DNA of 64,000 nucleotides from an uncultured delta proteobacterium (GCA_963727445.1 CAVSGI010000013.1:17316-81315); one strand, 5' to 3'. Positions 1-22,072 are shown, numbered from the stretch's first letter. The notes: generated by a model from the sequence alone, not told the origin. A program made the numbers and translations.

Positions 1-2
1 GT

Positions 3-2819: not shown

Positions 2820-2896
2820 GGGGGCGTGAAGGTTACCTCAGCCCGCGCCGGCTCACATCATGGACAGCCGAAGCTGGCGGCATCGACAGCGACGGA

Positions 2897-4522: not shown

Positions 4523-4568
4523 CCGGGTCCCAGAATAGCCTACGAGCGTCTTTCTCGGGAGGGCCGAG

Positions 4569-7576: not shown

Positions 7577-7641
7577 CGCCGCGATGATAGACCGATTCTT
7601 TCACCGTGCGAGACCGCGTTTCGCGGTGTTATCCTCGTGCC

Positions 7642-8382: not shown

Positions 8383-8472
8383 GCGGCCTGCTCGGGGTCT
8401 GACGATGCGCGCAGGCGTCTCTTGCGCCTCGCCAGCGACCAGAGCGGAGTCCGTTTGTACTCGCGATCCCCT

Positions 8473-9298
8473 ATGCTGGTTGCGATGCGCGTCCTTTCGA
8501 TCATCGCGGTGCTCGTCGTCGCGGGCTGCAGCCGCAGCGAGCCAGCGACGGCGCCGCCGCCGGAGACGTCGCCGGTCGAGGAGACCGCGCCCGCCGAACT
8601 GCCGGCACCCACGTCTCCCACCATCGCCGTCACACGCGACGACTGCGAAGAGGTGGCCGCGCGCGCGGTCGACGTCGCGCCCATCATCGGCGTGGCAGTG
8701 GGCTCGCTGCGCGAGGCCGCCGGGGACGTGCCGGTCGCCTGTGACCGGGCCGTCCCTCGATGCGCGAGCGAAGACGATGGGACCACTTGTGCGTACGTCG
8801 TTCGCACTTACGACGCGTTTCATCGCGTCACCGTCTACCCGGCGGCCGCAGACGGCGGCCTGGTCGAAGGCACGGCCTTCGTCGCGCTTGACGGGACGGC
8901 CACCGAGCCGGCGCCCGAGCTCGACGTCCGCCGCTGGGCGGTCGAGGGCGACGTGCGCTGCCGCGGCGGAAGCCAACAGCACTCCTACGGACCAGCGACG
9001 CGCGGCGCACTCACCACCGGAAGCGCCGGCGTCACCTGCTGGACCCCCGAACCGTTCGATGTCACGGCCCAGCGCGTCACCACTCATTGGGCGCGCGGCG
9101 TCACCACTACCGAAGTCACCGTGGAGCCCGCCCGCACCCTCGGTGGCGAGCCCACCTCGAATCCGCGTCAGCTTCCCGCCGGCCCCGCTGCCCCTGCGCG
9201 AGTCCATCCCTCTCGAGGTCGAGCTCCGCATCGGTCCCCACGTCCTCGCGCCCGTCGGCCGCGTGACGACCCCCGAGCGCTATCCGATCCGGCGCTGA
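8473..9298 (+). CDS. Hypothetical lipoprotein with an apparent frameshift near 9160
   Basis: MLVAMRVLSIIAVLVVAGCSRSE lipobox. The frame opened at 8422 turns into R/P junk after '...TTEVTVEPARTLGGEPTS'. The adjacent frame that ends at 9298 is coding-like only over its last ~45 aa (RIRVSFPPAPLPLRESIPLEVELRIGPHVLAPVGRVTTPERYPIRR). Confidence 0.45.
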
Positions 9299-9426
9299 GA
9301 CGGAGCGCGCAACCGGACGCGGCCGCCATGCTGGCCTCCCTTCTTCGACGTCGAGCCAGGGACTCTGGCGCGCGGTATCCTCACGGGCGAGGGGGCGCGC
9401 GGCGCGTTTGAGCCGTTTTCGAGACC

Positions 9427-10113
9427 GTGTGGTCCTCATCACTCGTCGAGATGCCTCGAGCTACTGCATCCATCCTCGTCCGGGAGCCGACCCCCAAAGG
9501 GGAACCTCTCGATGCCGAGCGCGTGCTGGCGGCCGAGATCGCACCGGGATTCGACGACGCCACGCTCGTCCGGCGGGCCCTCGAGGGTGACACCTGGGCG
9601 GAAGAGGCCTTGTTTCGCCGCCATGTCCGGGTAATCGCCAGGACGGTGTTGCGACTTCTGGGCAATCGAAGCGAAGCGGAGGACGTCGTCCAGGACACCT
9701 TCGTTTCGGCGTTGGCCGACCTGCACAAGCTCCGGGATCCGTCCTCCGCTCGCACGTGGCTCATCGGGATCGCCGTTCACCGGGTCCACCGCCGGTTTCG
9801 CCGTCAGAAGCTGCGGCGGCTCCTCGGTCTCGAGCGCGCGTCCGAGGGGCCGCTCGAGCGACAGGCGAGCCCAGGACTAGACCCGGAGCGGCGCGCGGAG
9901 CTGGCCCTCCTCGATGCACAGCTCGAGCGCTTGCCCGCGAAGGATCGAACGGCGTGGATCCTCCGCAACGTCGAGGGCATGTCCCTCAAGGAGACCGCCG
10001 ACGCCATCGGCTGCTCCCTCGCGACAATCAAACGGCGCATCGCGAAGGCCGAGGCCGCAATCCGCGCTCACGTGGACCTCGCGCCACCATTGTCGGAGGT
10101 CTCCGATGGCTAG
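9427..10113 (+). CDS. ECF (σ70 group 4) RNA polymerase sigma factor
   Basis: Region-2-like 'EDVVQDTFVSALADLHKLRDPSSARTWLIGIAVHRVHRRFRR' and region-4 HTH 'RTAWILRNVEGMSLKETADAIGCSLATIKRRIAKA'. GTG start at 9427. Alternative ATG at 9451. Confidence 0.8.
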   Translation: MWSSSLVEMPRATASILVREPTPKGEPLDAERVLAAEIAPGFDDATLVRRALEGDTWAEEALFRRHVRVIARTVLRLLGNRSEAEDVVQDTFVSALADLHKLRDPSSARTWLIGIAVHRVHRRFRRQKLRRLLGLERASEGPLERQASPGLDPERRAELALLDAQLERLPAKDRTAWILRNVEGMSLKETADAIGCSLATIKRRIAKAEAAIRAHVDLAPPLSEVSDG

Positions 10114-11278
10114 GCTCTCTCGACCCGTGGACCAGCACCTCGACGATCCCGTCAACGAGGAGATGATGTACCGCCTGTGGCGCGGGGTGGGGCAGGCCCG
10201 CGCGGCTGCGCGGGGACAGAAGCCGTCTCGTTGGTTGATGCCTGCGCTCACCGGGGTCGGCGTCGGCGCGCTCGCCCTGGCGGCGCTGCTCTTCACTCTG
10301 CCGCCCAGCAGGGGGCCGGAGCCCCTTTCGCTCGCGACAAACGAGGCGCTTCCGAGCACCCTCAGCGCTGGCGCAGAGCCAGAGCACCTGCGTCTCTCCG
10401 ACACGTCCGAGATCGCGCTCGCGCCGGACACCGAGCTCCAGCTGGTCACGAACCATCGTGGCGTCTTCGAGACGCGCCTTCTTCGCGGCGTCGTCTCCAT
10501 GGACGTCACCCCCGGTGGTCCCCGACGATACCGCGTCGATTGCGGGCTCGCGCTGGTCGAGGTCGTCGGCACGCGGTTCGAGATCGAGCGGAGCGAAGCC
10601 GCGGTGGCCGTCCGGGTCTCGCGGGGGCGCGTGCGCGTCACAGACAGGGTGCGGTCGCGGGTGAGGGAGCTGGGTCCTGGCGATTCGTGGGCCATCCTCG
10701 CGGCACCGAGCGAGGCCGTCGCGCCGGCGCCGTCCCACCCGCCGGCCGCGCCCAGCCCAACGCCATCGTCGACGCGCGAGCCGAGCCCACCTCCGTCGAC
10801 TGGCTGGCGGCAGCTCGCCGCTCAGGGCCGCTGGGACGAAGCGTGGGACGAAGTGGGACCCGCGCGGATCGCGGCGCGCGCTCGGGCCGCGGACGGCGAC
10901 GAGCTCCTCGCCCTCGCCGATGTCGCACGTCAGTCGGGTCATCCAGAAGCGGCGGTAAGGCCGCTCGAGACGCTGCTGTCGCGCTATCCGAACGACGCGC
11001 GGGCCGGACTGGCCGCCTATACCCTCGGCATCCTCCGAATGGATCGCCTCGACCAACCGGCGGAAGCGGCGGAAGCCTTCGAGCGCGCGCTGTCGGCGGG
11101 GTTGCCGGAGCATCTCGTCGAGCACGCGATGGGCCGCCTCGCCGTCGCCCATCACCGCGCGGGAGAAGACGACGCCGCGCACACCGCCGCGCGACGCTAC
11201 CTGGCGCGGTTTCCCGATGGGCCGATGGCCCAGGACGTGAGAGCCTACGCGCGGGGGGGCGACGAATTCGATCCATGA
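10106..11278 (+). CDS. Anti-sigma factor (FecR-like) with a single TM helix
   Basis: Start MARLSRPV overlaps the σ-factor stop by 8 nt. TM 'WLMPALTGVGVGALALAALLFTL'. FecR-like β-rich segment 'GTRFEIERSEAAVAVRVSRGRVRV'. TPR-like C-terminus. Confidence 0.7.
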   Translation: MARLSRPVDQHLDDPVNEEMMYRLWRGVGQARAAARGQKPSRWLMPALTGVGVGALALAALLFTLPPSRGPEPLSLATNEALPSTLSAGAEPEHLRLSDTSEIALAPDTELQLVTNHRGVFETRLLRGVVSMDVTPGGPRRYRVDCGLALVEVVGTRFEIERSEAAVAVRVSRGRVRVTDRVRSRVRELGPGDSWAILAAPSEAVAPAPSHPPAAPSPTPSSTREPSPPPSTGWRQLAAQGRWDEAWDEVGPARIAARARAADGDELLALADVARQSGHPEAAVRPLETLLSRYPNDARAGLAAYTLGILRMDRLDQPAEAAEAFERALSAGLPEHLVEHAMGRLAVAHHRAGEDDAAHTAARRYLARFPDGPMAQDVRAYARGGDEFDP

Positions 11279-12405
11279 GGCGGCTGCGCTCATCGACCGT
11301 CGGCACGCTCGGCGGCACGGTGCTCGCGCTCTGGATGGCGACCGCCACTGCGCGCGCCGACGAGCCGACCCCGATGCCCGCGCGCGTCGCGGTGCAGCCT
11401 CCCGGCTGTGAGCTCACCGTGGAGGAGATCGTACGCCTCCTTCGGATCGAGCTCACCGGGGACGGGGTGAGCGACGTCTCAATCTCGTCCTCCGATGGCG
11501 AACATGCGCTTGGGGAAGAGGATAGCGACACGACCGCGGCGATCGTGCGGCTGGAGGCGATCCCGTGCGAGCCAAGCGCGGTCGAGCTCGCCGTGACCAT
11601 CGACAATCTCGTCACGCACAAGCAGGTGCGCCGGGTCCTGTCGACGAGCGGTTTGCCCGAGGCGACCCGCGCTCGCGCCATCGCGCTCGGCATCGCCGAG
11701 CTGCTGCGCTCCAGCTGGGCCGAGCTGTCGCTCGCGGACGTTCAATCGTCGCCCCTGGCGGCGTGGCTCCGCACGCGCCTTCGCATCGAGCTCACGGACC
11801 GCTCGAGGGCCGCCGACACAGAGTCCACGGAAGCGCTCGCGACCCCCGAGCCCACCCCGACACCCGTCGACAAGCCGACCGCGCGGGTCCCTGCGCTCCT
11901 CGGCGCGGCGACGCTGGCCCTCACCGCGATGCCGAGCGGAGGAAGTGCCTCCATCGGTGGGGCCCTCGACGGCGCGTTTCGGCTCCTGGTGGACGCCTTC
12001 GCGCTTCGCGTGGAGATCGCCGCGCAGCTCGGTCGCGCCGAGGCGCGGCTGGGCGGTGTCGATCTCGGCATGGCCACCCTCGCGCTGATCCCCGAGCTTC
12101 GCAGCCCCATGGGCCCGGCGCTCTTCGCCGTCGGCCCGAGCGTGACACTGGGTGTCGGCTGGGCGAGTGGTCAGCCCGACCCCGGTATCGACGCGTCGTC
12201 GGGTGCCGAGCTCATCGTCTCGGCGGGGGCGGAAGTGCGCGTGCTCTTTCCGCTCACCAGCCAACTCTGGGGCACCTTCGGCCTGTCCGGGGGGTACATG
12301 GTTCGCGGCCTGTCGACCGTCGTCGACGCGGCCCCCGATGGTGGCCTCGTCGGGCCCTACGTCGCGCTGCGCGTCGGCATCGCCCTTTCGTCGAGGGGAT
12401 CATGA
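11275..12405 (+). CDS. Secreted hypothetical protein, co-operonic with the ECF σ/anti-σ pair
   Basis: ATG at 11275 overlaps the anti-σ stop as ATGA. Signal peptide MRRLRSSTVGTLGGTVLALWMATATARA. The ORF-track N-terminus (10177-11274) is shadow. Confidence 0.55.
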   Translation: MRRLRSSTVGTLGGTVLALWMATATARADEPTPMPARVAVQPPGCELTVEEIVRLLRIELTGDGVSDVSISSSDGEHALGEEDSDTTAAIVRLEAIPCEPSAVELAVTIDNLVTHKQVRRVLSTSGLPEATRARAIALGIAELLRSSWAELSLADVQSSPLAAWLRTRLRIELTDRSRAADTESTEALATPEPTPTPVDKPTARVPALLGAATLALTAMPSGGSASIGGALDGAFRLLVDAFALRVEIAAQLGRAEARLGGVDLGMATLALIPELRSPMGPALFAVGPSVTLGVGWASGQPDPGIDASSGAELIVSAGAEVRVLFPLTSQLWGTFGLSGGYMVRGLSTVVDAAPDGGLVGPYVALRVGIALSSRGS

Positions 12406-13595
12406 GACGGCTGCTGCTGATCGCGCTTCTGCTCGCCATCGGCTGCGCGGACGCTCCCGTCGAAGTCCTCGGCCGGGCGCCTCCCACCTACTGGGGCGAC
12501 GTCGCCCCGGTCCTCGGGCCCTCGTGCACCTGCTGCCACCAACCCGGTGGCTCCGCGCCGAGCCTCGCCTCCCCCGAAGAGCTGGGCCTGTATTTTGACG
12601 ACGCCCTGCGCACGATCGCCGAGGGTTCGATGCCCCCGCTGCCCGCCGGGCCGGCCACCGAGGGCTGCGCCATGAAGCAGCCAGAGGCCCCGCGCCTCTC
12701 GGCCGCCGCGGTGGCGCTGCTTCAGCGTTGGGACGACGGGGGGCGCTCGCCGGGTGATCCCGCGTCGGCCCCCCCGCTGCCGGCGACCTGCCGCCCACCG
12801 CCCGCGGACGCGGAGACCATCGCGGTCACCGTGCCCCCGTTCGACCTCGGCGCCGAGCGAGTCTTGACGGTTTGCTTTGCCGTCGATTTCGATCGACCCG
12901 TGGACCGATACGTCACGGGCCTACGCGTTCAAAGCGCGCCGCAGACGCTGCGCGCGCTCGCTCTCTACGTCCCCGATGCATTCGACCTCGCCGACGCCGA
13001 CGGTGAGCCTTGTCCGGCGTACGACCCCTTCACAACTCCCGTCCTGGCGGCGACCTGGGGAGGTGAATCCGAGATGCGCTACGACGACGGCGGCGTACCC
13101 CTGCCGCGCGACGGGCCCCTGGCCATCCGCGCCGTGTATGACCTCACCTTCGCAGATGGCGACGCGCGCCCGAGGCCCGTCGACCTCGAGATCGAGCTTC
13201 GCCCCGAGAGCTCCGTGTCACTGGTGGACCACTTGATTCTGAGCGTGGATGCCGATCTGCCTCTCGAGGCGGGCGGGATCCGAGAGAGGGGGACTGTCGG
13301 TAGCTTCGTCGCGCCCCGGCGCATCGTCGGCGCATTCATGGTGATGCACGAGCTCGGCCAGCGCGTGGAGGTCGAGCTCCGCCGAGACGGAGATGAGACC
13401 TGTCGGATCGTCGACGATCCCTTCGAGGTCGGGTGGGTCAGACCGGTGGTCTTCGAGCCGCCATTCCCCCTCGTCGATGAGTTCGCGCTGCGGTGCCGAT
13501 GGGACCTGAGCGGACAGAGCGAGGACGTCCCCTTCGGCAACCCCCCGCAAGGGGAAGCCTGCCTCGCGCTGTTCCTCGCCGAAGCGCCTCCATGA
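12402..13595 (+). CDS. Lipoprotein with an N-terminal CxxCH cytochrome-c-like module and a degenerate PHM-like domain that has lost its copper ligands
   Basis: ATGA overlap with the previous gene. Lipobox MRRLLLIALLLAIGCADA. 'WGDVAPVLGPSCTCCHQPGG...MPPLP' aligns with the N-terminus of 13610-14797. The positions of HH, H, HxH and M in the paralog are replaced here (TLRALALYV, IRAVYDL, MVMHELGQR, GEACLALF). Confidence 0.6.
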   Translation: MRRLLLIALLLAIGCADAPVEVLGRAPPTYWGDVAPVLGPSCTCCHQPGGSAPSLASPEELGLYFDDALRTIAEGSMPPLPAGPATEGCAMKQPEAPRLSAAAVALLQRWDDGGRSPGDPASAPPLPATCRPPPADAETIAVTVPPFDLGAERVLTVCFAVDFDRPVDRYVTGLRVQSAPQTLRALALYVPDAFDLADADGEPCPAYDPFTTPVLAATWGGESEMRYDDGGVPLPRDGPLAIRAVYDLTFADGDARPRPVDLEIELRPESSVSLVDHLILSVDADLPLEAGGIRERGTVGSFVAPRRIVGAFMVMHELGQRVEVELRRDGDETCRIVDDPFEVGWVRPVVFEPPFPLVDEFALRCRWDLSGQSEDVPFGNPPQGEACLALFLAEAPP

Positions 13596-13609
13596 CGTCA
13601 AAGCGTGCG

Positions 13610-14797
13610 TCACCCCTCCTCCGCGAAAACGAACGCGAGGCACATCTCGTCCTCGGTGCCGGTGCCGAAGATGACGGGGTCGGCGGTGGTGTTGTCGAAG
13701 GTGCAGTGGAGCCGGATTTCGTCGTTTGGACCGACTTCGACGGGCTCTTGGAAGAAGTAGTAGCTCTGCCAGTCGAAGTCCCACGCGGGTACGTCGACGA
13801 GGGTGCGTTCAGCGCCTCCCCCCACAGGCACGAGAGAGACGGTGATGCGCCGGCCGAGGAGGTGCATGTGGGGGAAAACGCCGTAGAGCGTGCGAGGACC
13901 GATGAGCACCTGCTGGTCGACTTCGTACCCCACTGTGCGTGGGGGAATCGAAAAGCTCGTCTCGGCGATCAGGAGCGAGCGCGCGGGCCGCTCAACCGAA
14001 GGCACGGTCTGGAGCTGAACCTCGGCCGGAGCCACGACCGGCTCGGCGAGCGGGTGGTAGTGCACCTGCACGACGAACGGCTGGTCCGCCCCCACGCGCA
14101 CGCCGGTTCCGGGCGGGAAGCGCGACGCCCGCTCGCCCGGGGCCCAACCACCCACCATTCGCGTGCCGAACACGCCCGCGTCGCCAAAGCACGAATAGCC
14201 GGGCCCGGCCTCGCTCTCGTCCCTCGCGCGCGCCGCTGCGGCCGCGCTCTCGTCCACGGTCGCGAAGAGGATGATGTGATGGACCACCCGTGTATCGCCG
14301 GGGATGACCTCGAGCGCGGTGACGTAAGCGTCTCGCGGTGGACCCTCGGCGACGAAACAACGGTAGTCATCGTCGACGCCTGCCGGGGGAACGTACTCGG
14401 CGCCGACCTCGAAGACGAAATCCGGTGACTCGAGCTCCGTGGTCGGCGGCGTCAGAGCCATGCCAGTGCCAATCTCGGGCCCGCGCGCGAGCCACGCCAG
14501 CAGTGCGTCGCGCTCCTCGCCGGGCATGATTCGGGTATCGTCGAGGGGCACGCACCCCTCGCAGGTCGCGGGCGGAAAGGGGGGCATCGTTCCATCGGCG
14601 ATCACGGAGGCGACCAGTGATGCCCGCGGCGCGAAGTCCGCCGCTTCGGTGAGCGGAAAGGGTGCGATGCCGGCTTGGTGGTGGCAGCCGATGCATCGCC
14701 GCGCCACGATCGGTGCGACATCCGCCCAGCCGGTCTCCGCGTCGGGTGCGCAGGCGCTGAGGACGCCGAGCAACGAGAGGAGCGCGCCGTGTTTCAT
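13610..14797 (-). CDS. Lipoprotein combining a c-type cytochrome-like CxxCH module with a PHM/DBH-type copper type II monooxygenase core
   Basis: Lipobox MKHGALLSLLGVLSACA. 'DVAPIVARRCIGCHHQAGIAPF...DGTMPPFPP' is a CxxCH motif with an MPP Met ~30 aa downstream. 'YRCFVAE', 'VHHIILFA', 'GGWAPGERASRFPPGTGVRVGADQPFVVQVHYHP', 'FPHMHLLGR' and 'GTGTEDEMCLAF' parallel the PHM motifs VHHMLLFGC, ...FRVGGETGSKYFVLQVHYGD, H-x-H and TSSDEMCNLY. All six Cu ligands (HH+H, HxH+M) are present. Confidence 0.7.
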   Translation of the reverse strand: MKHGALLSLLGVLSACAPDAETGWADVAPIVARRCIGCHHQAGIAPFPLTEAADFAPRASLVASVIADGTMPPFPPATCEGCVPLDDTRIMPGEERDALLAWLARGPEIGTGMALTPPTTELESPDFVFEVGAEYVPPAGVDDDYRCFVAEGPPRDAYVTALEVIPGDTRVVHHIILFATVDESAAAAARARDESEAGPGYSCFGDAGVFGTRMVGGWAPGERASRFPPGTGVRVGADQPFVVQVHYHPLAEPVVAPAEVQLQTVPSVERPARSLLIAETSFSIPPRTVGYEVDQQVLIGPRTLYGVFPHMHLLGRRITVSLVPVGGGAERTLVDVPAWDFDWQSYYFFQEPVEVGPNDEIRLHCTFDNTTADPVIFGTGTEDEMCLAFVFAEEG

Positions 14798-14905
14798 GTC
14801 CCGTGGGGACCATGACGCGCGCGCAATGGCTCATCTACACGTGAGCCGTTCGACACGGCTGGGGGTCCTCATGCACATGTCAGGGAACGTCGGTCGCGAG
14901 GGGGG

Positions 14906-16456
14906 GTGCCCATGAGGGGGGTTGCGTTCGCGTGGGGAATGCTGGTGCTCGCGGCGGCGTGCGGCGACGGCACGGGTGGGGGGGACGACACGGGGACGAT
15001 GGACACGGCACCCGACATAGTCGAAGGGGGAACGGACGCGGACAGCGGACCTCCGCCGGGCCTCGACGACCGCTGTCTTCCCCTGTGGGAGGCGGCGGTC
15101 GGCGCGGCCGAGAGGTACGGGGCGGCCGGTGGGGGCTTCGCGCTCGTACTGGAGGGTGCGCTGGTCTGTACGGTTCCCTACGGAGCGGAGCGTCGCGAGT
15201 CCGGGTCCCCGCTGGTGACGACCGAGACCTGGTTCCGCTGGCCGCAGTGGGACGGCCTGGTCATGAAGCTCGCCGCGCTCGAGCTCGCCGACGCAGGAGC
15301 GCTGGACCTGGATGCGTCGGTCGAGTCGCTCGTCGGCGATCTCGACCTCGAGCCGGCGGTGTGGGCCAGCGCGCTCACGGTTCGACATCTCGTCTGGGGT
15401 CGGTCGGGGCTGCCTTCTACAGCCCCCCCTTTCGCGGGACATGTGGACTTCGGGGAGGCATGTGCCGAAGACGGGCCGAGCGCACGACAGTGGTGGGACG
15501 CCTTCGAAGACGGCGGGCGGGTCATGTGGGCAGAGCCGGGCTTCACACACACGTACGGGCGGAACGAGGGCGTCCTGTTGCAGCTCGTGCTCGAAGAGGT
15601 GACCGGCGAGAGCGTCGCCGACACGATCCAGCGCACGATCTTCGACCCGGTAGGCATGGACAATTCCCGTATCGGCTTCGGGCCGGAGCATCACGAACGA
15701 CAGATGTATGGGTATGTGACCAGCGACATCTCCACGGACACCGTCACGCGCCTCGACCACCTGGTGAACGCCTGCGGCGCGGCGTTGGGCACCTTCGGTT
15801 TGACGACGACCCTCGACGACGCCGCGCGGCTCACCCTGACCCTCGCCCGGGGCGGCGTCGACGAAGGCGGCGCGCGCGTGCTCGCGGAGAGCAGCATGGC
15901 GGCGCTCGTGGAGCCGCGCGGCCCGACCTGGAACAACTTCGAGGTGGCCGCCGGGCCGGTGGTGTACCTCCACGAGGGCGCTCCCTTGTTGCACACGCCC
16001 TCGCACCTCGCGGGCTTCAGCGGCGGCGTCACCCTCGTGCCCGACGCGGGCTTCGGGGTGATCGAGCTGAGCAATCTGGACTACTGGCGCATACGGCATG
16101 TGGCCGAGGTGGCGGCGGTCGAGCGCTACGTGGGCGCGCCCTGGCCCAACGCCAACTACGAGGTACCCATGCCCTGGGAACCCTCCGACATGGAGCTTTC
16201 GGAATACGCAGGCGCCTACGTCGCTCCCATCGGGTGCCTCGAGGACTCGATCGAGCTGCAGGACGGGCGACTCGTGGCGCGTGGATTCGCCCTCGTGCCG
16301 CGTACGCCGGATCGATTCAAGAGCCCTGCTGGGCACCTGGCGTTCTGGCGGCGGGACGGGGCCATCGCCGAGTTGCTGTCGCCTGCGGACGAGTTCGCGT
16401 TCTACCCCGTGGACGCCGTACCGCCGGAGATCGCAGCCCTGGCCTCGTGTCCGTGA
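14906..16456 (+). CDS. Lipoprotein of the β-lactamase / serine-hydrolase fold, apparently lacking the SxxK nucleophile
   Basis: Lipobox MPMRGVAFAWGMLVLAAACGDG. 'YGRNEGVLLQLVLEEVTGESVADTIQRTIFDPVGMDNS' matches the class-C β-lactamase/esterase block (YxN...GxS...IFxPLGM). The expected 'FxIGSxSK' position reads 'FRWPQWDGLVMK' with no Ser. Confidence 0.6.
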   Translation: MPMRGVAFAWGMLVLAAACGDGTGGGDDTGTMDTAPDIVEGGTDADSGPPPGLDDRCLPLWEAAVGAAERYGAAGGGFALVLEGALVCTVPYGAERRESGSPLVTTETWFRWPQWDGLVMKLAALELADAGALDLDASVESLVGDLDLEPAVWASALTVRHLVWGRSGLPSTAPPFAGHVDFGEACAEDGPSARQWWDAFEDGGRVMWAEPGFTHTYGRNEGVLLQLVLEEVTGESVADTIQRTIFDPVGMDNSRIGFGPEHHERQMYGYVTSDISTDTVTRLDHLVNACGAALGTFGLTTTLDDAARLTLTLARGGVDEGGARVLAESSMAALVEPRGPTWNNFEVAAGPVVYLHEGAPLLHTPSHLAGFSGGVTLVPDAGFGVIELSNLDYWRIRHVAEVAAVERYVGAPWPNANYEVPMPWEPSDMELSEYAGAYVAPIGCLEDSIELQDGRLVARGFALVPRTPDRFKSPAGHLAFWRRDGAIAELLSPADEFAFYPVDAVPPEIAALASCP

Positions 16457-16905
16457 GACCGGGGGGTGACCGGACCGGGGGGGGGAGATCGTGACCGGGT
16501 TGGCGGGGGGGCGGGGAGATCGTGACCGGGTTGGCGGCGCGACGGATGACGCTGAACGACGCTTCGCGCGCCATGAAGAGGTCAGTTGTGTGAGCATGAG
16601 CGCCCGGCGCGTCTCCAACCGCACAGCAGAAGCGGAATCGACCGCTGTCAGGGGGAGATCGGACCGGGGGGAGATCGTGACCGGGTTGGCGGCGCGACGG
16701 GGAGATCGTGACCGGGTTGGCGGCGCGACGGATGACGCTGAACGACGCTTCGCGCGCCATGAAGAGGTCAGTTGTGTGAGCATGAGCGCCCGGCGCGTCT
16801 CCAACCGCACAGCAGAAGCGGAATCGGCCGCTGTCAGCAGTGTTCTCTCTGTCGCAGGTCCTCGGCGAATACACCGATGCGTGTCCGCGCTTCGCGCAGA
16901 CACAC
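16457..16905. repeat. Tandemly duplicated transposon-flanking repeat array
   Basis: 'ggggagatcgtgaccgggttggcgg' occurs four times in full and twice in part. A ~135-bp unit (ggagatcgtgaccgggttggcggcgcgacggatgacgctgaacgacgcttcgcgcgccatgaagaggtcagttgtgtgagcatgagcgcccggcgcgtctccaaccgcacagcagaagcggaatcg[a/g]ccgctgtcag) is duplicated at ~16516-16650 and ~16695-16830. A subterminal imperfect hairpin sits at 16871-16912 (acaccgatgcgtgtc ... gacacacatcggtg). Confidence 0.8.
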
Positions 16906-16935
16906 ATCGGTGCCCGACGGGCGCCGCGATGATCG

Positions 16936-18039
16936 CTACGAAGGCGGGGGCCGGCGCTTGGGCGCGGGTGCGACGCGCACGCCGTGGTGCACACGCATCC
17001 ACCACGTGCCGTGAGGGAAGACGACGCGGCGGTCGCCCGCCGTCCAGCGCGCGAGCTTGGCGTCGTAGGTGGCCTCGAAGTCGCGCGCTTCCTCGATCGC
17101 GGCGAGAGCGGCGTTCAGGTCGCCCCCAGCCTTGAAACGCGGGTTGAGCTTGCCGAAGAGCTCCCAGCTCTTGGCCCTGGCGGTGCGCGGGACGCGCACA
17201 CAGCGGCGAGCGCCCTTGAATGCGATGCCTTCCTGTGCCGCCTCGGCATGGGCGGCGCGCTCGTACTCCCGAACGCTCTCGGCGATGCGCGCCCGCGCGC
17301 CGCGCTCGCCATAGGCGGCGATGAGCTGCTCGGGCATCTCGAGGCGGAGCTCTGCGCTCTCGGGCCAGTCGGGGTTTTCGGGGTCGAAGTATCCGTCGGG
17401 GCGTGTGGCTTTGATGACGCGCCTGCCGATGTCGCCGGGGAGCGTCTTGGCCCCGGGCCAGTCCTTGGCGTAGCGGACGGCGAAGGCGGACACGGCATTG
17501 GCGATGAGGTAGGCGATGTCGTCGACGAGCGCGTCCGCGGTCAACGGCTCGTGCTCGCCCTTGAGGTATTTGTTGAAGACCTCCTCGGGCCAGCCGAGCA
17601 GCGCCTTCATCCCCTGCGCAAACGTGCGATGAAAGTCGCGCTTGAAGTCGGGCTGCACGCCGCGCACGTCGGTGTAGACGAGGTGGATGTGCGTCGACAT
17701 CAGTATCGCGGCATGAACGCGGACGCCGTGCTTGTTCGCGGCCGCCGCGAGGCAGTACCAGAAGAGATTTTCGACCTGGCGATGCTCGTCTGGGCGGAAC
17801 AGGAAGTAGCGGCGCGTCGTGCGCCGGACCGTCGTCCAGACCTTGCCCTTGATCACGCGCTTGCGGCGCGTACGCATGCGCCGGCTGCGCAGATGTCGGT
17901 CATAGGTATTTGTCGGCTTGCGGAGCGCGCCCATGCCGACCCGGCGCTGCCAGAAAGGCGCCAGAAATCGGCGACGTGATTTCGAGCACTTGCGCCGAAA
18001 AAACGGCGAACCCTCCGCCACCCGCCGGCGGTCCGCCAC
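16936..18039 (-). CDS. HUH-family (IS200-like / REP-associated tyrosine) transposase
   Basis: HUH motif 'MSTHIHLVYT'. Tyr-containing 'VDDIAYLIANAVSAF' resembles the RAYT YxxxNPV motif. Arg/Lys-rich N-terminus. A likely true start is the ATG at 17934 (MGALRKPTN...). Confidence 0.6.
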   Translation of the reverse strand: MADRRRVAEGSPFFRRKCSKSRRRFLAPFWQRRVGMGALRKPTNTYDRHLRSRRMRTRRKRVIKGKVWTTVRRTTRRYFLFRPDEHRQVENLFWYCLAAAANKHGVRVHAAILMSTHIHLVYTDVRGVQPDFKRDFHRTFAQGMKALLGWPEEVFNKYLKGEHEPLTADALVDDIAYLIANAVSAFAVRYAKDWPGAKTLPGDIGRRVIKATRPDGYFDPENPDWPESAELRLEMPEQLIAAYGERGARARIAESVREYERAAHAEAAQEGIAFKGARRCVRVPRTARAKSWELFGKLNPRFKAGGDLNAALAAIEEARDFEATYDAKLARWTAGDRRVVFPHGTWWMRVHHGVRVAPAPKRRPPPS

Positions 18040-18084
18040 CTGCGGTTTTGTCGCGGTTTCTCATCCGTGCTGGCCTTGGAGGCA

Positions 18085-18125
18085 GTCGCCCCGCGCCGAC
18101 CCGGTCACGATCTCCCCCCGCCGCG
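18085..18125. repeat. Inverted copy of the transposon-flanking repeat (right end)
   Basis: Reverse-complement match to the 16488/16511 repeat units. Confidence 0.6.
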
Positions 18126-18138
18126 TCGCGCCTGTTGA

Positions 18139-19311
18139 CTACTGCGAAAACTTCCCGCTCTGGAACACGTGCCCCAGCAGCTGGTCGACGCGCGCCGTCC
18201 ACTCCTGCGCCGGCTGGGTGCCCATCGCCTGAAGCGCCGCCTTGATCTCGTTGAGCGCCTTCAAGTGACTGAAGAGCTGGATGTCGCTCATCGGCCGGTC
18301 GCTGGTCAGCAGACCCTTGATGCGGTTGATCTCGCTGATGAGCGCGTCCATCCCGACGTCGGCGGCGCCGAAGCGCCGCGCCTGCGGGTGCTCGCGGTAC
18401 CACGCTTCGAGCACCGGCCCCACGATCCCGTCCAGGATCTCCGCCTGGTCGAGGTTGTTCCACGTGTGGCGCAGCACGAAGAAGTCGCTCGGATCGGACT
18501 GCGCCCGCCCGTCGAGGAGCGCGCTCGCAGCGAAGAGCTTCAGCATCTTGATCGCGCGGCGGTCGGAGAAGCTCACGCCCTCGGAGCGGATCTGGAAGAT
18601 CAGCCCCTTGTAGCCCGCGAGGAACTCCTCGCTGAACTGCATCCTCTCGGCGAAGCCCGCGTGCAGCCCGTGCAGCTCCTGCGCCGTCAGCAGCGGCTGC
18701 AGCCGATCGTAGTTGCCGCTGATCTTCGACACCTCGTGCGCGATGCCCTTCAGCAGCAGATCGTGGAAGTGATAGCTGTCGAGGTTGTCCGAGTGCACGC
18801 GCAGCAGGAAGCGGTCGAAGACCGCCATCAGATCCTCGTCGTTCGGCACCTCGTTCGACGCCCCGAAGGCGCTGATCAGCGGCACGCGGAACGTCTTGCC
18901 GCCCACCGTGTAGAGCCGCTCGTTCAGCACGCTCAAGAGCGAGTTGAGGATCGCGCTGTTCGCCTTGAAGACCTCGTCCAGGAACGCGATCTCCGCCTGC
19001 GGCAGCATCCCGTCCATGCGCCGCTCGTACTGCCCCTCGCGGAACTTCTGGATGTCGATGGGACCGAAGAGCTCGTTCGGCTCCGTGAAGCGCGTCAGCA
19101 GATACTCGAAGTAGTTCGCCTGGACGAGCTTGGAGAAGAGCCGGACCAGCGCGCTCTTGGCCGTGCCGGGCGGGCCGATGAGCACCATGTGCTCGCCGGC
19201 GATGGCGGCGATCATCATCAGCCGCACCACCTCGCTCTTGCCGAGGAAGGTGCTCTCGAGCTGGCGAGCCACCTGCTGGAGCTTCTGGGCAGTCTGTGTC
19301 GGGTTGCTCAC
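18139..19311 (-). CDS. MoxR-family AAA+ ATPase, RavA-like
   Basis: Walker A 'LIGPPGTAKS', Walker B 'IAFLDEVFKA', and 'AILNSLLSVLNERLY...SNEVP'. Long colinear similarity to the E. coli RavA N-terminal AAA+ module (YERSHAIRL.../[57 protein letters not shown]). GTG start overlaps the upstream stop. Confidence 0.75.
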   Translation of the reverse strand: MSNPTQTAQKLQQVARQLESTFLGKSEVVRLMMIAAIAGEHMVLIGPPGTAKSALVRLFSKLVQANYFEYLLTRFTEPNELFGPIDIQKFREGQYERRMDGMLPQAEIAFLDEVFKANSAILNSLLSVLNERLYTVGGKTFRVPLISAFGASNEVPNDEDLMAVFDRFLLRVHSDNLDSYHFHDLLLKGIAHEVSKISGNYDRLQPLLTAQELHGLHAGFAERMQFSEEFLAGYKGLIFQIRSEGVSFSDRRAIKMLKLFAASALLDGRAQSDPSDFFVLRHTWNNLDQAEILDGIVGPVLEAWYREHPQARRFGAADVGMDALISEINRIKGLLTSDRPMSDIQLFSHLKALNEIKAALQAMGTQPAQEWTARVDQLLGHVFQSGKFSQ

Positions 19312-20462
19312 GGGTGTACCTCGGGGGTCAGTCCATCTCGTTCGTGGTCGAGGCGTGGCGGCTCAGCGTAGTCTACGAGCGCGACGGCGCGCCCAGAGGC
19401 CTCGGACCCGGCCATCGAGTCGAGCTCCCCCGCACGCTTGCGTAACACCAACAGGTCGTCGGGGTCGAGGTCGAGGAGCGCACCGAGGTCGTCGGGCGCC
19501 CCCACCATGGCCGGAAGAACCGCGACGAAGAGGCGCCCGGCCTCGTCGGCTGGACGCCCGAAGACAGGCTCTTTGCCCGCACGCGCGTCGAGAACCGCGA
19601 TCACGTGCGCCTCGTAGATCAGCGCGAGGAGATAGAAGAGGAGGCGCGGTGGCGGCCGCTGAGCGGCGAGGGTCCCGAGCGCCTGGCCGAGGGGCGACAT
19701 CACGGAGGGACCCTGCGACACCAGGTTCCGGGCGATGCCGTTGCGGACCAGATCGTCCGAGAGGACGGCGAGCGCCGCCAGCCCGACGGTGGGCGTGCCG
19801 AATAGATCGGTGTGCAGGATCTCGGTGACCGGCGAGCGATGCACCAGCTCACGCACGCGCCGGCTGATCGACAGCTCGGCGTCGAGCTCTTCGAAGAGGG
19901 CGAGGATGCCGTGCTCGGACTTGTCCTGGCGCACCATCCTCAGGCGCGGCATCGCCACCACGCGCGGCGGCACCGGGCGACCGAAGAAGCGATAGGTGTA
20001 GGCCCAGTTCTTCACCACCACGTCGGTGCGCGACATGGTGACGAAGCGCGACAAGAAGACGTGGCGCGCCAGCGCCTCGCCGCGAGTGGAGGGCGCGCCC
20101 GCCGCGTCGATGAGCCAGTCGGCGTAATCGAGCGCCTTCTTGCGCGCGCCGCGCGAGAACATCCGGTCGAGCTTCGGATCGGTCACGGCGACGAGGTTGT
20201 GCGCCGCCATCACCAGCGCCATCACGCCGCGCTCGGGCCACACCAACGCGCGAAGCGGGGCTATCTCGGACGCCTCGGCGTGCATCAGGTCGTAGATCTC
20301 GCGGTCGATGGTGGCGTCGGCGCTCGACGCCAGGCTGAAGTGCTCGAGCATGCCCGGCGTGAGCGGCTGCCCAGCGACCGCCGCGCCGCCCGCCAGGAGC
20401 GGATGGAGGAAGTCGGCGGCGAAGGAGTCGAAGCGCGCCTGCATCTTGGTGGCGTCGCTCAT
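19308..20462 (-). CDS. Hypothetical protein, middle gene of the RavA-like operon
   Basis: 384-aa ORF of non-shadow composition. Stop overlaps the RavA-like GTG. Start overlaps the upstream gene stop (20459-20462). No recognisable motifs. Confidence 0.55.
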   Translation of the reverse strand: MSDATKMQARFDSFAADFLHPLLAGGAAVAGQPLTPGMLEHFSLASSADATIDREIYDLMHAEASEIAPLRALVWPERGVMALVMAAHNLVAVTDPKLDRMFSRGARKKALDYADWLIDAAGAPSTRGEALARHVFLSRFVTMSRTDVVVKNWAYTYRFFGRPVPPRVVAMPRLRMVRQDKSEHGILALFEELDAELSISRRVRELVHRSPVTEILHTDLFGTPTVGLAALAVLSDDLVRNGIARNLVSQGPSVMSPLGQALGTLAAQRPPPRLLFYLLALIYEAHVIAVLDARAGKEPVFGRPADEAGRLFVAVLPAMVGAPDDLGALLDLDPDDLLVLRKRAGELDSMAGSEASGRAVALVDYAEPPRLDHERDGLTPEVHP

Positions 20463-21901
20463 CCCTCTTCTTCCTCTGCCTCCGCGTCCGGTAGCTTCTT
20501 CCCCGGAACACCCCAGAGCGGAAAGCGGCGCGCGTCGTCGTACTGCAGCAGCGGCAACGGCGGCTCGGTGTTGTCGGGACGGTCGGCGCTCACCGGTGCC
20601 GCGCCGACCTCGCGCAGCGCGCGCCGCGAGATGGGCCCGAAGGCCGTCGCCGGGATGACGATGGGCGTCGAGCGACCAGGCTCGAAGTACACGTGACCGT
20701 CGCCGCGATCGCGCACCAGCTCCTCGAGCACCGCCGACGCCACCGCCGGCACCAGCGTCAGGCCCGCGGGGACGTAGATGCGCTCCGCGACTTCACAGTA
20801 GTAGACGCCGAGGGGCACGCCCTCGATGCCCGAGCGGTCGATCAGGTAGATGCGATCCTCACCGATCGCCATCCGGAGCGCCGCGAGGGTGTTGGGCGGC
20901 AGCGCATAGAGCAGGCGGCTGAGCCACTCGCGCTGATCGCCGGGGATGACCGCGCTCACCACGTTGCGCCAGGGCTCGCTGCTCGGCGCGAGGCGCAGCG
21001 GCAGGGACATCGACAGGTCGACGTCCTTCGGTGTGGCGGGCCCGGCCTTCTTGCCCTTCTCGAGGCTGAGGTCGGTCCGCACCAGCGAGCGCACGGGCGC
21101 GAAGGGGGGCAGCGGATCGACCAGCTCCACCTCGCCGTCGCCCCGGAAGAGATAGAGCTTGCCCTTGTCGAAGAGGGACGCGCAGGACTCGAGGCTGATC
21201 GGATGCCGAAAGCCCAGCTCGACCGCGAAGGTCTCGCCGAGCGGCGCGAAGACGTGGACCCCGGGGATCGCCTGCATCAGAGCGACGACCCGCGCCGGCG
21301 CGCCCGCGATGTCGAAGACGTAGAGACGACGGGGCGCGTCGGAGAAGGCGGACTGGCTCGGCCACTCGGCGAGGGCCGCGCGCGCCGTGACGCGCCAGCG
21401 GAAGAGATAGCCGACGAGGGCACCCCCGATGCCGACCTCGGCGGTGGCGAAGAGGCGGTCCGGGATGGGGTCGCCGCCCGGCGGCACGCGATGGGGGGTG
21501 AGCTTGAGGACGAGATCGCGGAAGGAGATCTCGCGCTCGTAGGCATACGCCTGCTGAAAGCTGTCGTGATAGAGGACGAGGTCTGCGGCTTCGTCGAGGA
21601 GCTCGGCCACGTCGTAGCCGAGGGGCGAGGCCGGATCGCGGTACTTCACGAAATGGCGCGAGGTGCCGGTGAAGACCAGGCCGCCAGCGAGCTTCGCCAC
21701 GCCCGCGATGCGGTCCATGCGATAGCTCGACTCCGCCTGGACCGAGAGCATGATCTCGCGGGTCTTCAGGGACGTGACCAGGCGACGGATCTCGAGGGAG
21801 GGCAGGAGCTCGTCGAGGGAGCCCTCGTCTCCATAGGCCCGGAGGAAGGCGACCAGCCGGTCCAGGGAGGGAAAGAGCACGACGCCGCGCTGTCCCAGCA
21901 C
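20459..21901 (-). CDS. Hypothetical protein, first gene of the RavA-like operon; start uncertain
   Basis: The ORF-track N-terminus (21905-22504) is antisense shadow of the + gene at 22073. Protein-like sequence starts around 'VVLFPSLDRLVAFLRAYGDEGSLDELL'. A candidate GTG at 21901 is preceded by GAGG. Alternative ATG at 21751. Confidence 0.45.
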   Translation of the reverse strand: MLGQRGVVLFPSLDRLVAFLRAYGDEGSLDELLPSLEIRRLVTSLKTREIMLSVQAESSYRMDRIAGVAKLAGGLVFTGTSRHFVKYRDPASPLGYDVAELLDEAADLVLYHDSFQQAYAYEREISFRDLVLKLTPHRVPPGGDPIPDRLFATAEVGIGGALVGYLFRWRVTARAALAEWPSQSAFSDAPRRLYVFDIAGAPARVVALMQAIPGVHVFAPLGETFAVELGFRHPISLESCASLFDKGKLYLFRGDGEVELVDPLPPFAPVRSLVRTDLSLEKGKKAGPATPKDVDLSMSLPLRLAPSSEPWRNVVSAVIPGDQREWLSRLLYALPPNTLAALRMAIGEDRIYLIDRSGIEGVPLGVYYCEVAERIYVPAGLTLVPAVASAVLEELVRDRGDGHVYFEPGRSTPIVIPATAFGPISRRALREVGAAPVSADRPDNTEPPLPLLQYDDARRFPLWGVPGKKLPDAEAEEEEG

Positions 21902-22072
21902 GACGCCTCGCGCGTCGGGAGAAACCCCGGGGGTGCGAAACCGCGTCTGATGCAATGCGGCGCGTTCCAGCACGGGGGGCGAAGGTACCACCGCCCCCCT
22001 TTCTCCGGAAAGCACCACCGCGGGCCAGGCCCCCTTTCCCACTCTTTGTTCATGTGTTTGAGTTCGGGGCGA
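21902..22072. promoter_or_regulatory. Divergent intergenic region between the RavA-like operon and the 22073 secreted-protein operon
   Basis: A non-coding gap of ~170 bp between divergently oriented first genes. No consensus promoter was identified by eye. Confidence 0.3.

What the first reader, a model, noticed from the sequence alone, without database searches (positions are those of the whole stretch)
18139..21901. RavA-like MoxR ATPase in a three-gene operon with two unknown proteins, directly abutting a transposon
The 390-aa ATPase shares long colinear motifs with the E. coli RavA AAA+ module (GPPGTAKS, FEYLLTRF, FGPIDIQKF, YERR, IAFLDEVFKANSAILNSLLSVLNERLY, SNEVP). It lacks the RavA C-terminal LARA extension. 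Its partners are two proteins of about 384 and 480 aa with no recognisable domains. The upstream one does not look like the VWA partner ViaA expected for RavA. All three are joined by overlapping stop/start codons, and the operon starts about 15 bp from the right end of the HUH-transposase element. MoxR/vWA-type ATPases are recurrent cores of conflict or defence modules, so this may be an undescribed MoxR-centred system. A separate ViaA-like VWA gene sits 16 kb away at 1292-2819.
Basis: partly seen in the sequence, partly recalled or inferred. Interest (0 to 1): 0.62.

Follow-up and report, generated by a model that had tools for sequence, protein, structure and literature searches.

The report
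Split five-gene MoxR–vWA cluster in Myxococcota
The three genes are real, but they are the front half of a five-gene RavA-like ATPase/vWA cluster conserved in Sandaracinaceae-type myxobacteria; in this genome about 15 kb of unrelated DNA ending in a transposase element has cut it from its vWA and HEAT-repeat partners.

Summary
Three co-oriented minus-strand genes with 4-nt overlaps exist: A (20459-21973, 504 aa, not 480), B (19308-20462, 384 aa) and C (18139-19311, a 390-aa RavA-like MoxR ATPase without LARA).

The reading "three-gene, vWA-less system" does not hold. In 32 of 48 informative related loci the order is A-B-MoxR-vWA-HEAT. In the closest relatives the vWA gene starts 2-8 nt after the MoxR stop.

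In this window the cognate vWA gene is the "separate ViaA-like gene" at 1292-2819, and the HEAT gene follows it. A 15.3-kb block lies between them and MoxR. Its MoxR-side end is a RAYT-like HUH transposase flanked by inverted 22-nt repeats.

C matches Pfam bpMoxR and carries the GXXXTAKS P-loop. A is a distant relative of bpX2/fvmX7. The vWA protein weakly matches ivWA. These are families from the predicted MoxR-vWA "ternary conflict systems" of Kaur et al. 2020. The defining FtsH and β-propeller components are absent, and so is any effector.

The cluster looks vertically inherited, syntenic and strongly conserved, and I found it only in Myxococcota. My best reading is a lineage-specific MoxR-vWA remodelling machine: a new variant of a known kind, with unknown function.

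The parts
20459..21973 (-). Gene A, 504 aa. Tandem ferredoxin-like alpha+beta domains, with conserved but predicted-disordered N- and C-terminal peptides. Distant relative of Pfam bpX2/fvmX7.
19308..20462 (-). Gene B, 384 aa. Mostly alpha-helical protein with a small three-strand sheet. Found only in Myxococcota in these searches, and always next to A.
18139..19311 (-). Gene C, 390 aa. RavA-subfamily MoxR AAA+ ATPase with P-loop GPPGTAKS and no LARA domain.
   Evidence: Pfam bpMoxR 259.5 bits, plus AAA_5 and AAA_lid_8. Aligns with RavA in the PDB at 1e-44 over residues 1-298. NCBIfam RavA 183 bits against a 681-bit cutoff. GPPGTAKS was found in the MoxR gene of 56 sources, loci plus window.
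18089..18123 (.). Right-hand inverted repeat of the transposase element, 15 nt from the MoxR stop codon.
   Evidence: It is the inverted copy of GGAGATCGTGACCGGGTTGGCG with one mismatch.
16936..18039 (-). RAYT/IS200-like HUH (Y1) transposase ORF. The true start is probably internal.
   Evidence: NCBIfam REP_Tyr_transpos E=5e-4, 19.9 bits against an 80-bit cutoff. An HIH motif (THIHLVY) and YLIANAV are visible in the translation. No homolog in the 59 related loci, the PDB, plasmids or phages.
16476..16837 (+). Left end of the element. Four direct copies of the 22-nt motif lie inside a 186-bp tandem duplication.
   Evidence: There are 5 motif copies in the window against 0 expected by chance.
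2820..18138 (.). A 15.3-kb block between the MoxR stop and the vWA start. It holds a Ser/Thr kinase with a PEGA domain, a PEGA/TPR protein, an ECF sigma/FecR pair, a Cu-monooxygenase-like gene, a beta-lactamase-like gene and the transposase element.
   Evidence: The same spacer is 2-8 nt in the closest relatives. No tRNA and no flanking direct repeats.
1292..2819 (-). Cognate vWA partner (ivWA/ViaA-like: N-terminal helical region plus C-terminal vWA with a DASAS MIDAS motif). It is split into two ORFs by a 1-nt insertion at 2468.
   Evidence: 73% identical to the S. amylolyticus gene that follows MoxR. Pfam ivWA E 2.6e-5, below the gathering score. The extra base is absent from every ortholog aligned across that site. 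The MIDAS motif Dx[S/T]xS is kept in 35 of 39 orthologs.
1..1277 (-). Ortholog of the 600-aa HEAT-repeat protein, the fifth gene of the cluster. It runs off the window start.
   Evidence: tblastn 65% identity to residues 3-405 of the S. amylolyticus protein. HEAT_2 match in the full-length ortholog.
21974..22072 (.). A 99-nt divergent intergenic region upstream of A, the presumed promoter region.
   Evidence: The plus-strand gene 22073-22603 (176 aa, signal-peptide-like N-terminus) and the OmpA-like gene 22600-23706 diverge from A. The OmpA-like neighbour is syntenic in 21 loci. No sigma-70 consensus was found.
18004..18027 (-). Terminator-like hairpin plus T-run, 112 nt after the MoxR stop and inside the element.
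   Evidence: This is a consensus match only.

Best explanation
Genes A, B and C are the first three genes of a five-gene cluster: A, B, a RavA-like MoxR ATPase, a ViaA-like vWA protein and a HEAT-repeat protein. The cluster is conserved and syntenic in Sandaracinaceae and related Myxococcota.

In this genome the short spacer between the MoxR and vWA genes has been opened by 15.3 kb of unrelated chromosomal genes. The MoxR-side end of that block is a RAYT-like HUH transposase element. The vWA and HEAT genes therefore sit 15 kb downstream on the same strand. All of this is shown.

How it works is inferred from established MoxR-vWA pairs (RavA-ViaA, CbbQ-CbbO, NorQ-NorD, Rea1/Midasin). The ATPase forms a hexameric ring. 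The vWA protein acts as its adaptor and grips an acidic or extended peptide through its conserved MIDAS site. ATP hydrolysis then remodels or assembles a soluble cytoplasmic complex that includes A, B and the HEAT protein. The nearly invariant, predicted-flexible N-terminal peptide of A (PG..D.RG) and its KYRD..SPLGYD loop are the best candidates for the gripped segment.

The cluster is vertically inherited, apparently single-copy at each locus, strongly conserved and free of effector domains. I therefore favour a lineage-specific cellular assembly or quality-control role over a mobile defence system.
For: Cluster order and spacing:
- S. amylolyticus has A-B-bpMoxR-ivWA-HEAT in that order.
- Survey of 59 loci: A-B adjacent in 59 of 59, and MoxR after B in 53.
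- Of the 48 loci that have MoxR and at least 2 kb downstream, 32 have vWA adjacent, 7 are split by 1.2-7 kb, and 9 have none within about 7.6 kb.
- The MoxR stop to vWA start distance is 2, 6 and 8 nt in the closest relatives.
- The window orthologs of vWA (73% identity) and HEAT (65%) lie at 2819-1292 and 1277-1, on the same strand.

Vertical inheritance and conservation:
- The flanking OmpA-like and up157 genes are syntenic in 21 and 19 loci.
- Median identity to the query proteins is 67% for A, 80% for MoxR, 68% for vWA and 64% for HEAT (A and MoxR queries from this window, vWA and HEAT queries from S. amylolyticus). The neighbouring UbiA-like gene is 60-67% identical in four of these loci.

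Molecular features:
- MoxR motifs are intact and GPPGTAKS recurs in 56 sources.
- MIDAS Dx[S/T]xS is conserved in 35 of 39 vWA orthologs.
- The termini of A are conserved but have low pLDDT.
- None of the five proteins has a clear membrane-spanning segment.
- None of the five matches PADLOC.
Against: - No experiment exists for any component. The substrate is unknown.
- A third of informative loci have MoxR and vWA separated. One distant locus has A-B-MoxR with no vWA nearby, and another has only A-B. MoxR-vWA coupling is therefore not obligatory at the level of gene order.
- Pfam kinship points to families that were proposed as conflict systems.
- The vWA gene in this window carries a frameshift, so the full machine may not be functional here.
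- How many related genomes lack the cluster was not measured.
Confidence: 0.7

Rival explanations
1. It is a derived member of the MoxR-vWA "ternary conflict systems" of Kaur et al. 2020, of the FtsH or beta-propeller type. The MoxR-vWA couple would act as an ATP-dependent threshold switch that releases or activates an unrecognised effector, perhaps A, B or the HEAT protein, on infection.
For: - bpMoxR match at 259.5 bits, with the GXXXTAKS P-loop that the paper names as typical of FtsH and beta-propeller systems.
- A-family members match bpX2 and fvmX7.
- The vWA protein matches ivWA weakly.
- One B homolog hits fvmX1.
- The host lineage is Myxococcota, where such systems are enriched (PMC7159879).
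Against: - No FtsH-type Walker A in the window or in any of the 63 loci then held.
- No beta-propeller, TPR or membrane-spanning third component.
- No effector, Ubl or caspase genes.
- No hypervariable region. A is 56-80% identical in 55 of the 59 loci, and 40-49% in the four most distant.
- Syntenic, vertical-looking inheritance.
- E. coli RavA itself scores 192.8 bits on bpMoxR, so that match does not discriminate.
- The accessory-domain matches are near or below the gathering scores.
Confidence: 0.25
2. One reading: a self-contained, vWA-less, three-gene MoxR system (A-B-MoxR) that is functionally tied to mobile DNA or a defence island.
For: - A-B-MoxR stays a tight unit with overlapping codons.
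- A terminator-like hairpin now follows it.
- The distant locus L060 has A-B-MoxR followed by a methyltransferase, with no vWA within 7.5 kb.
- 16 of 48 loci have MoxR separated from vWA.
Against: - 32 of 48 loci are contiguous with vWA-HEAT, at 2-8 nt spacing in the closest relatives.
- The vWA/HEAT orthologs are still present downstream in this window.
- The transposase is absent from all related loci.
- The genes inserted at the junction elsewhere are unrelated housekeeping-type genes.
- No PADLOC hits.
Confidence: 0.07
3. In this particular genome the system is decaying. The operon was broken by the insertion and the vWA gene was then pseudogenised by a frameshift.
For: - A 1-nt insertion at 2468 splits the vWA gene, and the extra base is absent from every ortholog aligned across that site.
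- The vWA and HEAT genes have lost their native upstream context.
Against: - A, B, MoxR and the visible part of HEAT are intact and conserved.
- The ivWA genes of L052 and L057 are also read out of frame. Their isolate names suggest the same metagenome project, and I suspect long-read assemblies.
- The window's contig has the same sources, NCBI and ENA, so an assembly error is equally likely.
- The corrected protein could not be found in an independent assembly.
Confidence: 0.2

Closest known systems
E. coli RavA-ViaA (MoxR AAA+ ATPase plus vWA partner)
   Same: - The ATPase is collinear with the RavA AAA+ module over about 300 residues (E 1e-44).
- Gene order is the same, with the ATPase followed by a roughly 500-aa protein that has an N-terminal helical region and a C-terminal vWA/MIDAS domain.
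- It probably works the same way, as a hexameric ATPase with a vWA adaptor.
   Different: - No LARA domain. The protein is 390 aa against 498, and scores 183 bits against the 681-bit NCBIfam cutoff, so it cannot form an LdcI cage.
- Three further conserved partners (A, B, HEAT) have no counterpart in ravA-viaA.
- The vWA protein has no detectable sequence match to solved structures.
MoxR-vWA-beta-propeller ternary system (Kaur, Burroughs, Iyer, Aravind 2020, eLife; Pfam bpMoxR, bpX0-6)
   Same: - bpMoxR match and the GXXXTAKS P-loop.
- A distantly matches the accessory domain bpX2.
- No conventional effector.
   Different: - The vWA protein has no beta-propeller.
- The third component is a soluble HEAT-repeat protein, not a membrane-spanning TPR/beta-propeller protein.
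- No variable N-terminal region.
- Found only in Myxococcota, and syntenic.
FtsH ternary system, simple type (same paper; Pfam ivWA, fvmX1-7)
   Same: - The vWA domain is preceded by a long N-terminal region of about 280 residues. That the region is helical is my assumption by analogy with ViaA and was not tested here.
- Weak ivWA match.
- A-family members match fvmX7, best 2.8e-9.
- One B homolog hits fvmX1.
- Occurs in Myxococcota (deltaproteobacteria).
   Different: - The defining double FtsH-type AAA+ protein is absent from the window and from all loci held at that point.
- No NEFF1, radical-SAM, Ubl or caspase genes.
CbbQ-CbbO and NorQ-NorD (MoxR-vWA maturation and activase pairs)
   Same: Same general logic from established knowledge: a MoxR hexamer and a vWA adaptor whose MIDAS site engages the client, as a chromosomally encoded housekeeping chaperone.
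   Different: The MoxR subfamily is different, and no Rubisco or NOR client genes are nearby. I did not test the similarity by sequence.

Membership tests
RavA (NCBIfam NF010054, E. coli type) | RavA-subfamily AAA+ module (Walker A/B, sensor motifs, AAA_lid_8) | tested here: met
   Aligns with PDB RavA at 1e-44 over residues 1-298. Pfam AAA_5 and AAA_lid_8.
RavA (NCBIfam NF010054, E. coli type) | LARA domain and full-length equivalog score | tested here: not met
   183 bits against a 681-bit cutoff. The match ends at residue 296 of 390.
RavA (NCBIfam NF010054, E. coli type) | vWA partner (ViaA) encoded directly downstream | tested here: inconclusive
   A vWA gene follows MoxR in 32 of 48 related loci and is displaced by 15.3 kb here. 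Homology of that protein to ViaA itself was not shown; it has no PDB hit and was not scanned against NCBIfam.
MoxR-vWA-beta-propeller ternary system (Kaur 2020) | bpMoxR-type ATPase with GXXXTAKS P-loop | tested here: met
   PF20030 at 259.5 bits and GPPGTAKS. This feature does not discriminate, because E. coli RavA scores 192.8 bits on the same model.
MoxR-vWA-beta-propeller ternary system (Kaur 2020) | vWA component with a C-terminal beta-propeller (strictly present according to the paper) | tested here: not met
   The vWA orthologs are 492-508 aa, with the MIDAS motif at about residue 281-330, and match only ivWA in Pfam. No propeller family was found.
MoxR-vWA-beta-propeller ternary system (Kaur 2020) | Third component with a variable N-terminus, a membrane-spanning segment, TPR and a beta-propeller | tested here: not met
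   The fifth gene matches only HEAT repeats in Pfam. Its hydropathy maximum is 1.26, so no membrane-spanning segment is likely.
MoxR-vWA-beta-propeller ternary system (Kaur 2020) | Accessory bpX domains | tested here: inconclusive
   A scores 16.7 bits on bpX2, below the 23.6-bit gathering score. 21 of 62 family members reach E<=0.01 and a few exceed the gathering score.
FtsH ternary system (Kaur 2020) | Protein with two FtsH-type AAA+ domains | tested here: not met
   No G[PAS]PG[TCSV]GK[TS] Walker A in any frame of the window or of the 63 loci then held. No such gene in the called genes of L001.
FtsH ternary system (Kaur 2020) | ivWA-type vWA protein | tested here: inconclusive
   PF19997 at 24-25 bits against a 35-bit cutoff, and a partial match only.
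FtsH ternary system (Kaur 2020) | fvmX accessory proteins and Ubl, caspase, NEFF1 or radical-SAM effectors | tested here: inconclusive
   fvmX7 matches in 8 of 62 A-family members, some above the gathering score. fvmX1 matches in 1 of 60 B-family members. No effector families in the L001 neighbourhood.
Known anti-phage defence systems (PADLOC-DB v2) | Any component matching a PADLOC model | tested here: not met
   No hits at E<=0.1 for A, B and C of the window, nor for the five S. amylolyticus proteins.
RAYT / IS200-IS605 Y1 HUH transposase (neighbouring element) | HUH motif, catalytic Tyr and a profile match | tested here: inconclusive
   HIH and YLIANAV are visible in the translation. NCBIfam REP_Tyr_transpos scores 19.9 bits against an 80-bit cutoff. 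No Pfam Y1_Tnp hit.
RAYT / IS200-IS605 Y1 HUH transposase (neighbouring element) | Gene flanked by REP-like repeats in inverted orientation, with REPs dispersed in the genome | tested here: inconclusive
   Inverted 22-35 nt repeats flank the gene. All 5 copies in the 64 kb are at this element, and genome-wide dispersal cannot be tested from one window.

The most novel reading that the evidence does not exclude
This is an undescribed fifth architecture of MoxR-vWA multi-component machines: A (bpX2/fvmX7-like), B (a fold with no solved relative), a RavA-like MoxR, a vWA protein and a HEAT-repeat protein. It has no FtsH, no propeller and no effector, and is inherited vertically as a core cellular module of Sandaracinaceae and other Myxococcota. 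In this reading the vWA MIDAS site grips the invariant flexible N-terminal PG..D.RG peptide of A, and the ATPase remodels an A-B-HEAT assembly. That would mean some families filed as "conflict system" accessories are really parts of a housekeeping remodeller.
Probability: 0.3. Interest if true: 0.6.

Novelty: new variant of a known kind. Interest (0 to 1): 0.4.

Why it matters
- MoxR-vWA pairs are widespread, but their clients are mostly unknown. The ternary-system families of Kaur et al. are purely computational predictions.
- This is a version with five fixed, soluble, well-conserved partners in a cultivable genus (Sandaracinus). It offers a tractable case for asking what a RavA-like ATPase without LARA does, and whether bpX/fvmX-type accessory proteins are clients, adaptors or effectors.
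- The finding also shows how one rearrangement can make a conserved five-gene cluster look like a novel three-gene system next to a transposon.

Tried and rejected
- PADLOC scans of all components gave nothing.
- The afdb50 fold library was unavailable.
- The supplements of Kaur 2020 that are held as text contain no Sandaracinus or family names. A literature search for the Pfam names found nothing relevant.
- The transposase has no match in plasmids, phages or the PDB.
- I tried to confirm the vWA frameshift in an independent assembly. The independent Logan contig of the same strain covers only A, B and the start of C.
- I considered whether the 15.3-kb block is an integrative island. There is no tRNA, integrase hit or flanking direct repeat, so that is not supported.
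- I considered whether genes inserted at the same junction in other genomes are shared or effector-like. They are unrelated: a PilT-like ATPase, GH3, a hybrid histidine kinase, a TSP3-repeat protein, a hydrolase and DUF2330.
- The weak dCache_1_like hits in 14 of 62 A-family members were not backed by the fold search, so I set them aside.

Full report
**1. What is in the sequence**

The window is about 70% G+C. Between 18139 and 21973 three minus-strand ORFs follow one another with 4-nt stop/start overlaps, at 20459-20462 and 19308-19311. Their third-position G+C is 0.81-0.94, as expected for real genes in this genome.

It aligns with E. coli RavA residues 1-299 at E 1e-44 and goes no further. 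On the NCBIfam RavA equivalog it scores 183 bits against a cutoff of 681, and the match ends at residue 296. It is therefore a RavA-subfamily MoxR ATPase without the LARA domain.

The first gene, A, is longer than reported. A therefore starts at GTG 21973 and has 504 aa. A 99-nt divergent spacer separates it from a plus-strand pair: a 176-aa protein with a signal-peptide-like N-terminus at 22073-22603, and an OmpA-like protein at 22600-23706.

**2. The transposon**

Fifteen nucleotides after the MoxR stop lies a 35-nt repeat (18089-18123). It is the inverted copy of a 22-nt motif, GGAGATCGTGACCGGGTTGGCG. That motif occurs four more times in direct orientation at 16484-16722, inside a 186-bp tandem duplication. 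There are five copies in the window against none expected by chance.

Between the repeats is a 367-aa ORF with an HIH motif and a YxxxNA tyrosine motif. It weakly matches the REP-associated tyrosine transposase model (E 5e-4, 19.9 bits against a cutoff of 80). "HUH transposase element abutting the operon" is thus confirmed. It abuts the 3' end of the operon, and its family assignment is only tentative.

A terminator-like hairpin with a T-run lies inside the element, 112 nt after the MoxR stop.

**3. The three genes are half of a five-gene cluster**

In Sandaracinus amylolyticus the A ortholog is followed by B, a bpMoxR ATPase, a 492-aa protein with a weak ivWA (vWA) match, and a 600-aa HEAT-repeat protein, all on one strand.

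I fetched 58 further loci from GTDB species representatives, all myxobacterial MAGs apart from a few mislabelled or unclassified bins, and mapped all components by tblastn.
- A-B adjacency was found in 59 of 59 loci.
- MoxR follows B in 53 loci.
- Of the 48 loci with MoxR and at least 2 kb of downstream sequence, 32 have the vWA gene adjacent, usually followed by HEAT.
- Seven are split by 1.2-7 kb, and nine have no vWA gene within about 7.6 kb.

In the closest relatives the vWA start codon lies 2, 6 or 8 nt after the MoxR stop.

The window itself still has both missing genes. The vWA ortholog (73% identity) is at 2819->1292 and the HEAT ortholog (65%) at 1277->1, on the same strand as A-B-C. 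So the "separate ViaA-like VWA gene 16 kb away" is the cognate partner, displaced by a 15.3-kb block (2820-18138).

**4. The inserted block**

The block carries ordinary chromosomal genes: a Ser/Thr kinase with a PEGA domain, a PEGA/TPR protein, an ECF sigma/FecR pair, a Cu-monooxygenase-like gene, a beta-lactamase-like gene and the transposase element. It has no tRNA, integrase hit or flanking direct repeats.

None of these genes, including the transposase, occupies that junction in any other locus. The genes found at the junction elsewhere are unrelated to each other: a PilT-like ATPase, GH3, a hybrid histidine kinase, a TSP3-repeat protein, a hydrolase and DUF2330. The MoxR|vWA boundary is therefore a recurrent break point, and the transposon association is peculiar to this genome.

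**5. The vWA gene in the window**

It is split into two ORFs by one extra base at 2468 (GACGATCTC[G]ATCGCC). Every ortholog aligned across that site lacks this base.

The ivWA genes of L052 and L057 are also read out of frame. Their isolate names suggest one metagenome project, and I suspect long-read assemblies. The window's contig has the same NCBI/ENA provenance. The corrected protein is not on record elsewhere. I cannot decide between an assembly error and a pseudogene.

Across orthologs the MIDAS motif Dx[S/T]xS is conserved in 35 of 39, so the vWA domain is probably competent to bind metal.

**6. What the parts are**

*C (MoxR).* It matches Pfam PF20030 bpMoxR at 259.5 bits and has the GXXXTAKS P-loop that Kaur et al. 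2020 describe for the FtsH and beta-propeller ternary systems (PMC7159879). GPPGTAKS was found in 56 sources. The E. coli RavA AAA+ module also scores 192.8 bits on that model. The Pfam hit therefore places C in the RavA-like MoxR clade, not in a particular system.

*A.*
- It and its family weakly but recurrently match bpX2 (21 of 62 members) and fvmX7 (8 of 62, best 2.8e-9).
- A profile search of 1.84 billion representatives finds 498 clusters. Most of the best 150 listed are full length at about 500 aa, and all the named ones are from Myxococcales.
- The N-terminal 27 residues (PG..D.RG...G) and a KYRD..SPLGYD loop are among the best conserved columns across 98 distant representatives (median 35% identity), yet they are modelled with low confidence.

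*B.*
- It models with high confidence (pLDDT 92, pTM 0.90) as a mainly helical protein with a small sheet.
- It has no profile match, apart from a single fvmX1 hit at E 8e-4 in 1 of 60 homologs.
- Its 117 detectable relatives all score strongly, and every one a source names is myxobacterial.
- In distant loci the gene after A is still a B homolog. One such locus has A-B-MoxR without a nearby vWA gene, and marine Myxococcales have only A-B. A-B is therefore the tightest pair.

None of the five proteins has a clear membrane-spanning segment. None matches PADLOC.

**7. Membership**

The cluster fails the defining tests of both related classes in Kaur et al.
- No FtsH-type AAA+ gene is present in the window or in any of the 63 loci then held.
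- There is no beta-propeller on the vWA protein, and no TPR/propeller/membrane-spanning third component.
- No effector, Ubl, caspase, NEFF1 or radical-SAM genes are present.

It also fails as RavA proper, because it lacks LARA. It does share the MoxR-vWA core and distant accessory-domain kinship with those systems. I therefore file it as a new variant of a known kind.

**8. How it most likely works**

*Shown:* the gene content, order, conservation and motifs.

*Inferred* from established MoxR-vWA pairs (RavA-ViaA, CbbQ-CbbO, NorQ-NorD, Rea1):
- The ATPase forms a hexameric ring.
- The vWA protein acts as its adaptor and grips a peptide or acidic residue through its MIDAS site.
- ATP-driven remodelling acts on a soluble complex that includes A, B and the HEAT protein.
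- The conserved flexible segments of A are the best candidates for the gripped part.

*Conflict or housekeeping?* The cluster sits at a syntenic site; the OmpA-like and up157 neighbours recur in 21 and 19 loci. Median identities to the query proteins are 67% for A, 80% for MoxR, 68% for vWA and 64% for HEAT. Where it is present, the neighbouring UbiA-like gene is 60-67% identical. There is no hypervariable region, no effector and no mobile context apart from this one genome. That favours a lineage-specific cellular role (about 0.55) over a conflict system (about 0.25-0.3). The denominator, meaning related genomes that lack the cluster, was not measured.

**9. Verdict**

The idea of a vWA-less three-gene system tied to a transposon is an artefact of a genome-specific insertion. 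What remains is an uncharacterised, Myxococcota-restricted five-gene MoxR-vWA module. It is of moderate interest (0.4) as a tractable variant of a computationally predicted family.

Noticed in passing
window 16480-16837: A 186-bp tandem duplication (98% identical). Each unit carries two copies of the 22-nt REP-like motif GGAGATCGTGACCGGGTTGGCG. The only other copy in the 64 kb is the inverted one at 18094-18115.
   Followed up: partly
window 2468 (vWA gene 1292-2819, minus strand): A single extra base splits the vWA gene into two ORFs. It is absent from every ortholog aligned across that site. L052 and L057 also have frameshifted ivWA genes, which suggests assembly errors, but this is unresolved.
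   Followed up: partly
window 18004-18027 (minus strand): A terminator-like GC hairpin followed by TTTTTT lies inside the right end of the transposase element, 112 nt after the MoxR stop. It also lies within the longest transposase ORF, so the true transposase start is probably downstream of it.
   Followed up: no
L004, L005, L013, L019, L020, L029, L054 (between MoxR and vWA): The MoxR|vWA junction is a recurrent break point. 1.2-7 kb of mutually unrelated genes have been inserted there in different lineages (a PilT-like ATPase, GH3, a hybrid histidine kinase and others). L021 and L037 have insertions between B and MoxR instead.
   Followed up: partly
window gene A, residues 1-27 and about 108-121 (coordinates about 21973-21893 and 21652-21611): Segments that AF2 models with low confidence are among the most conserved columns of the whole family (PG..D.RG...G and KYRD..SPLGYD). 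They are candidate interaction or catalytic motifs.
   Followed up: partly
window 9427-11278 (plus strand): An ECF sigma factor and a FecR-like/TPR anti-sigma pair lie inside the inserted block. The 4-8 kb part of the block has lower G+C (0.64) than its surroundings.
   Followed up: no
window 24161-25609 (plus strand): A 482-aa protein with an N-terminal hydrophobic, signal-like segment and a Cys-rich MopE-like motif. By eye it has a DNSNS (MIDAS-like) motif, yet no Pfam VWA hit. A homolog (41% identity) sits upstream of the cluster in L023.
   Followed up: no
L029 12773-13949; L025: The MoxR of L029 is only 48% identical, against 61-92% in the other loci. That could be a frameshift or a paralog replacement. 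L025 is titled "Alphaproteobacteria" but carries the A-B pair, so it is probably a mislabelled bin.
   Followed up: no
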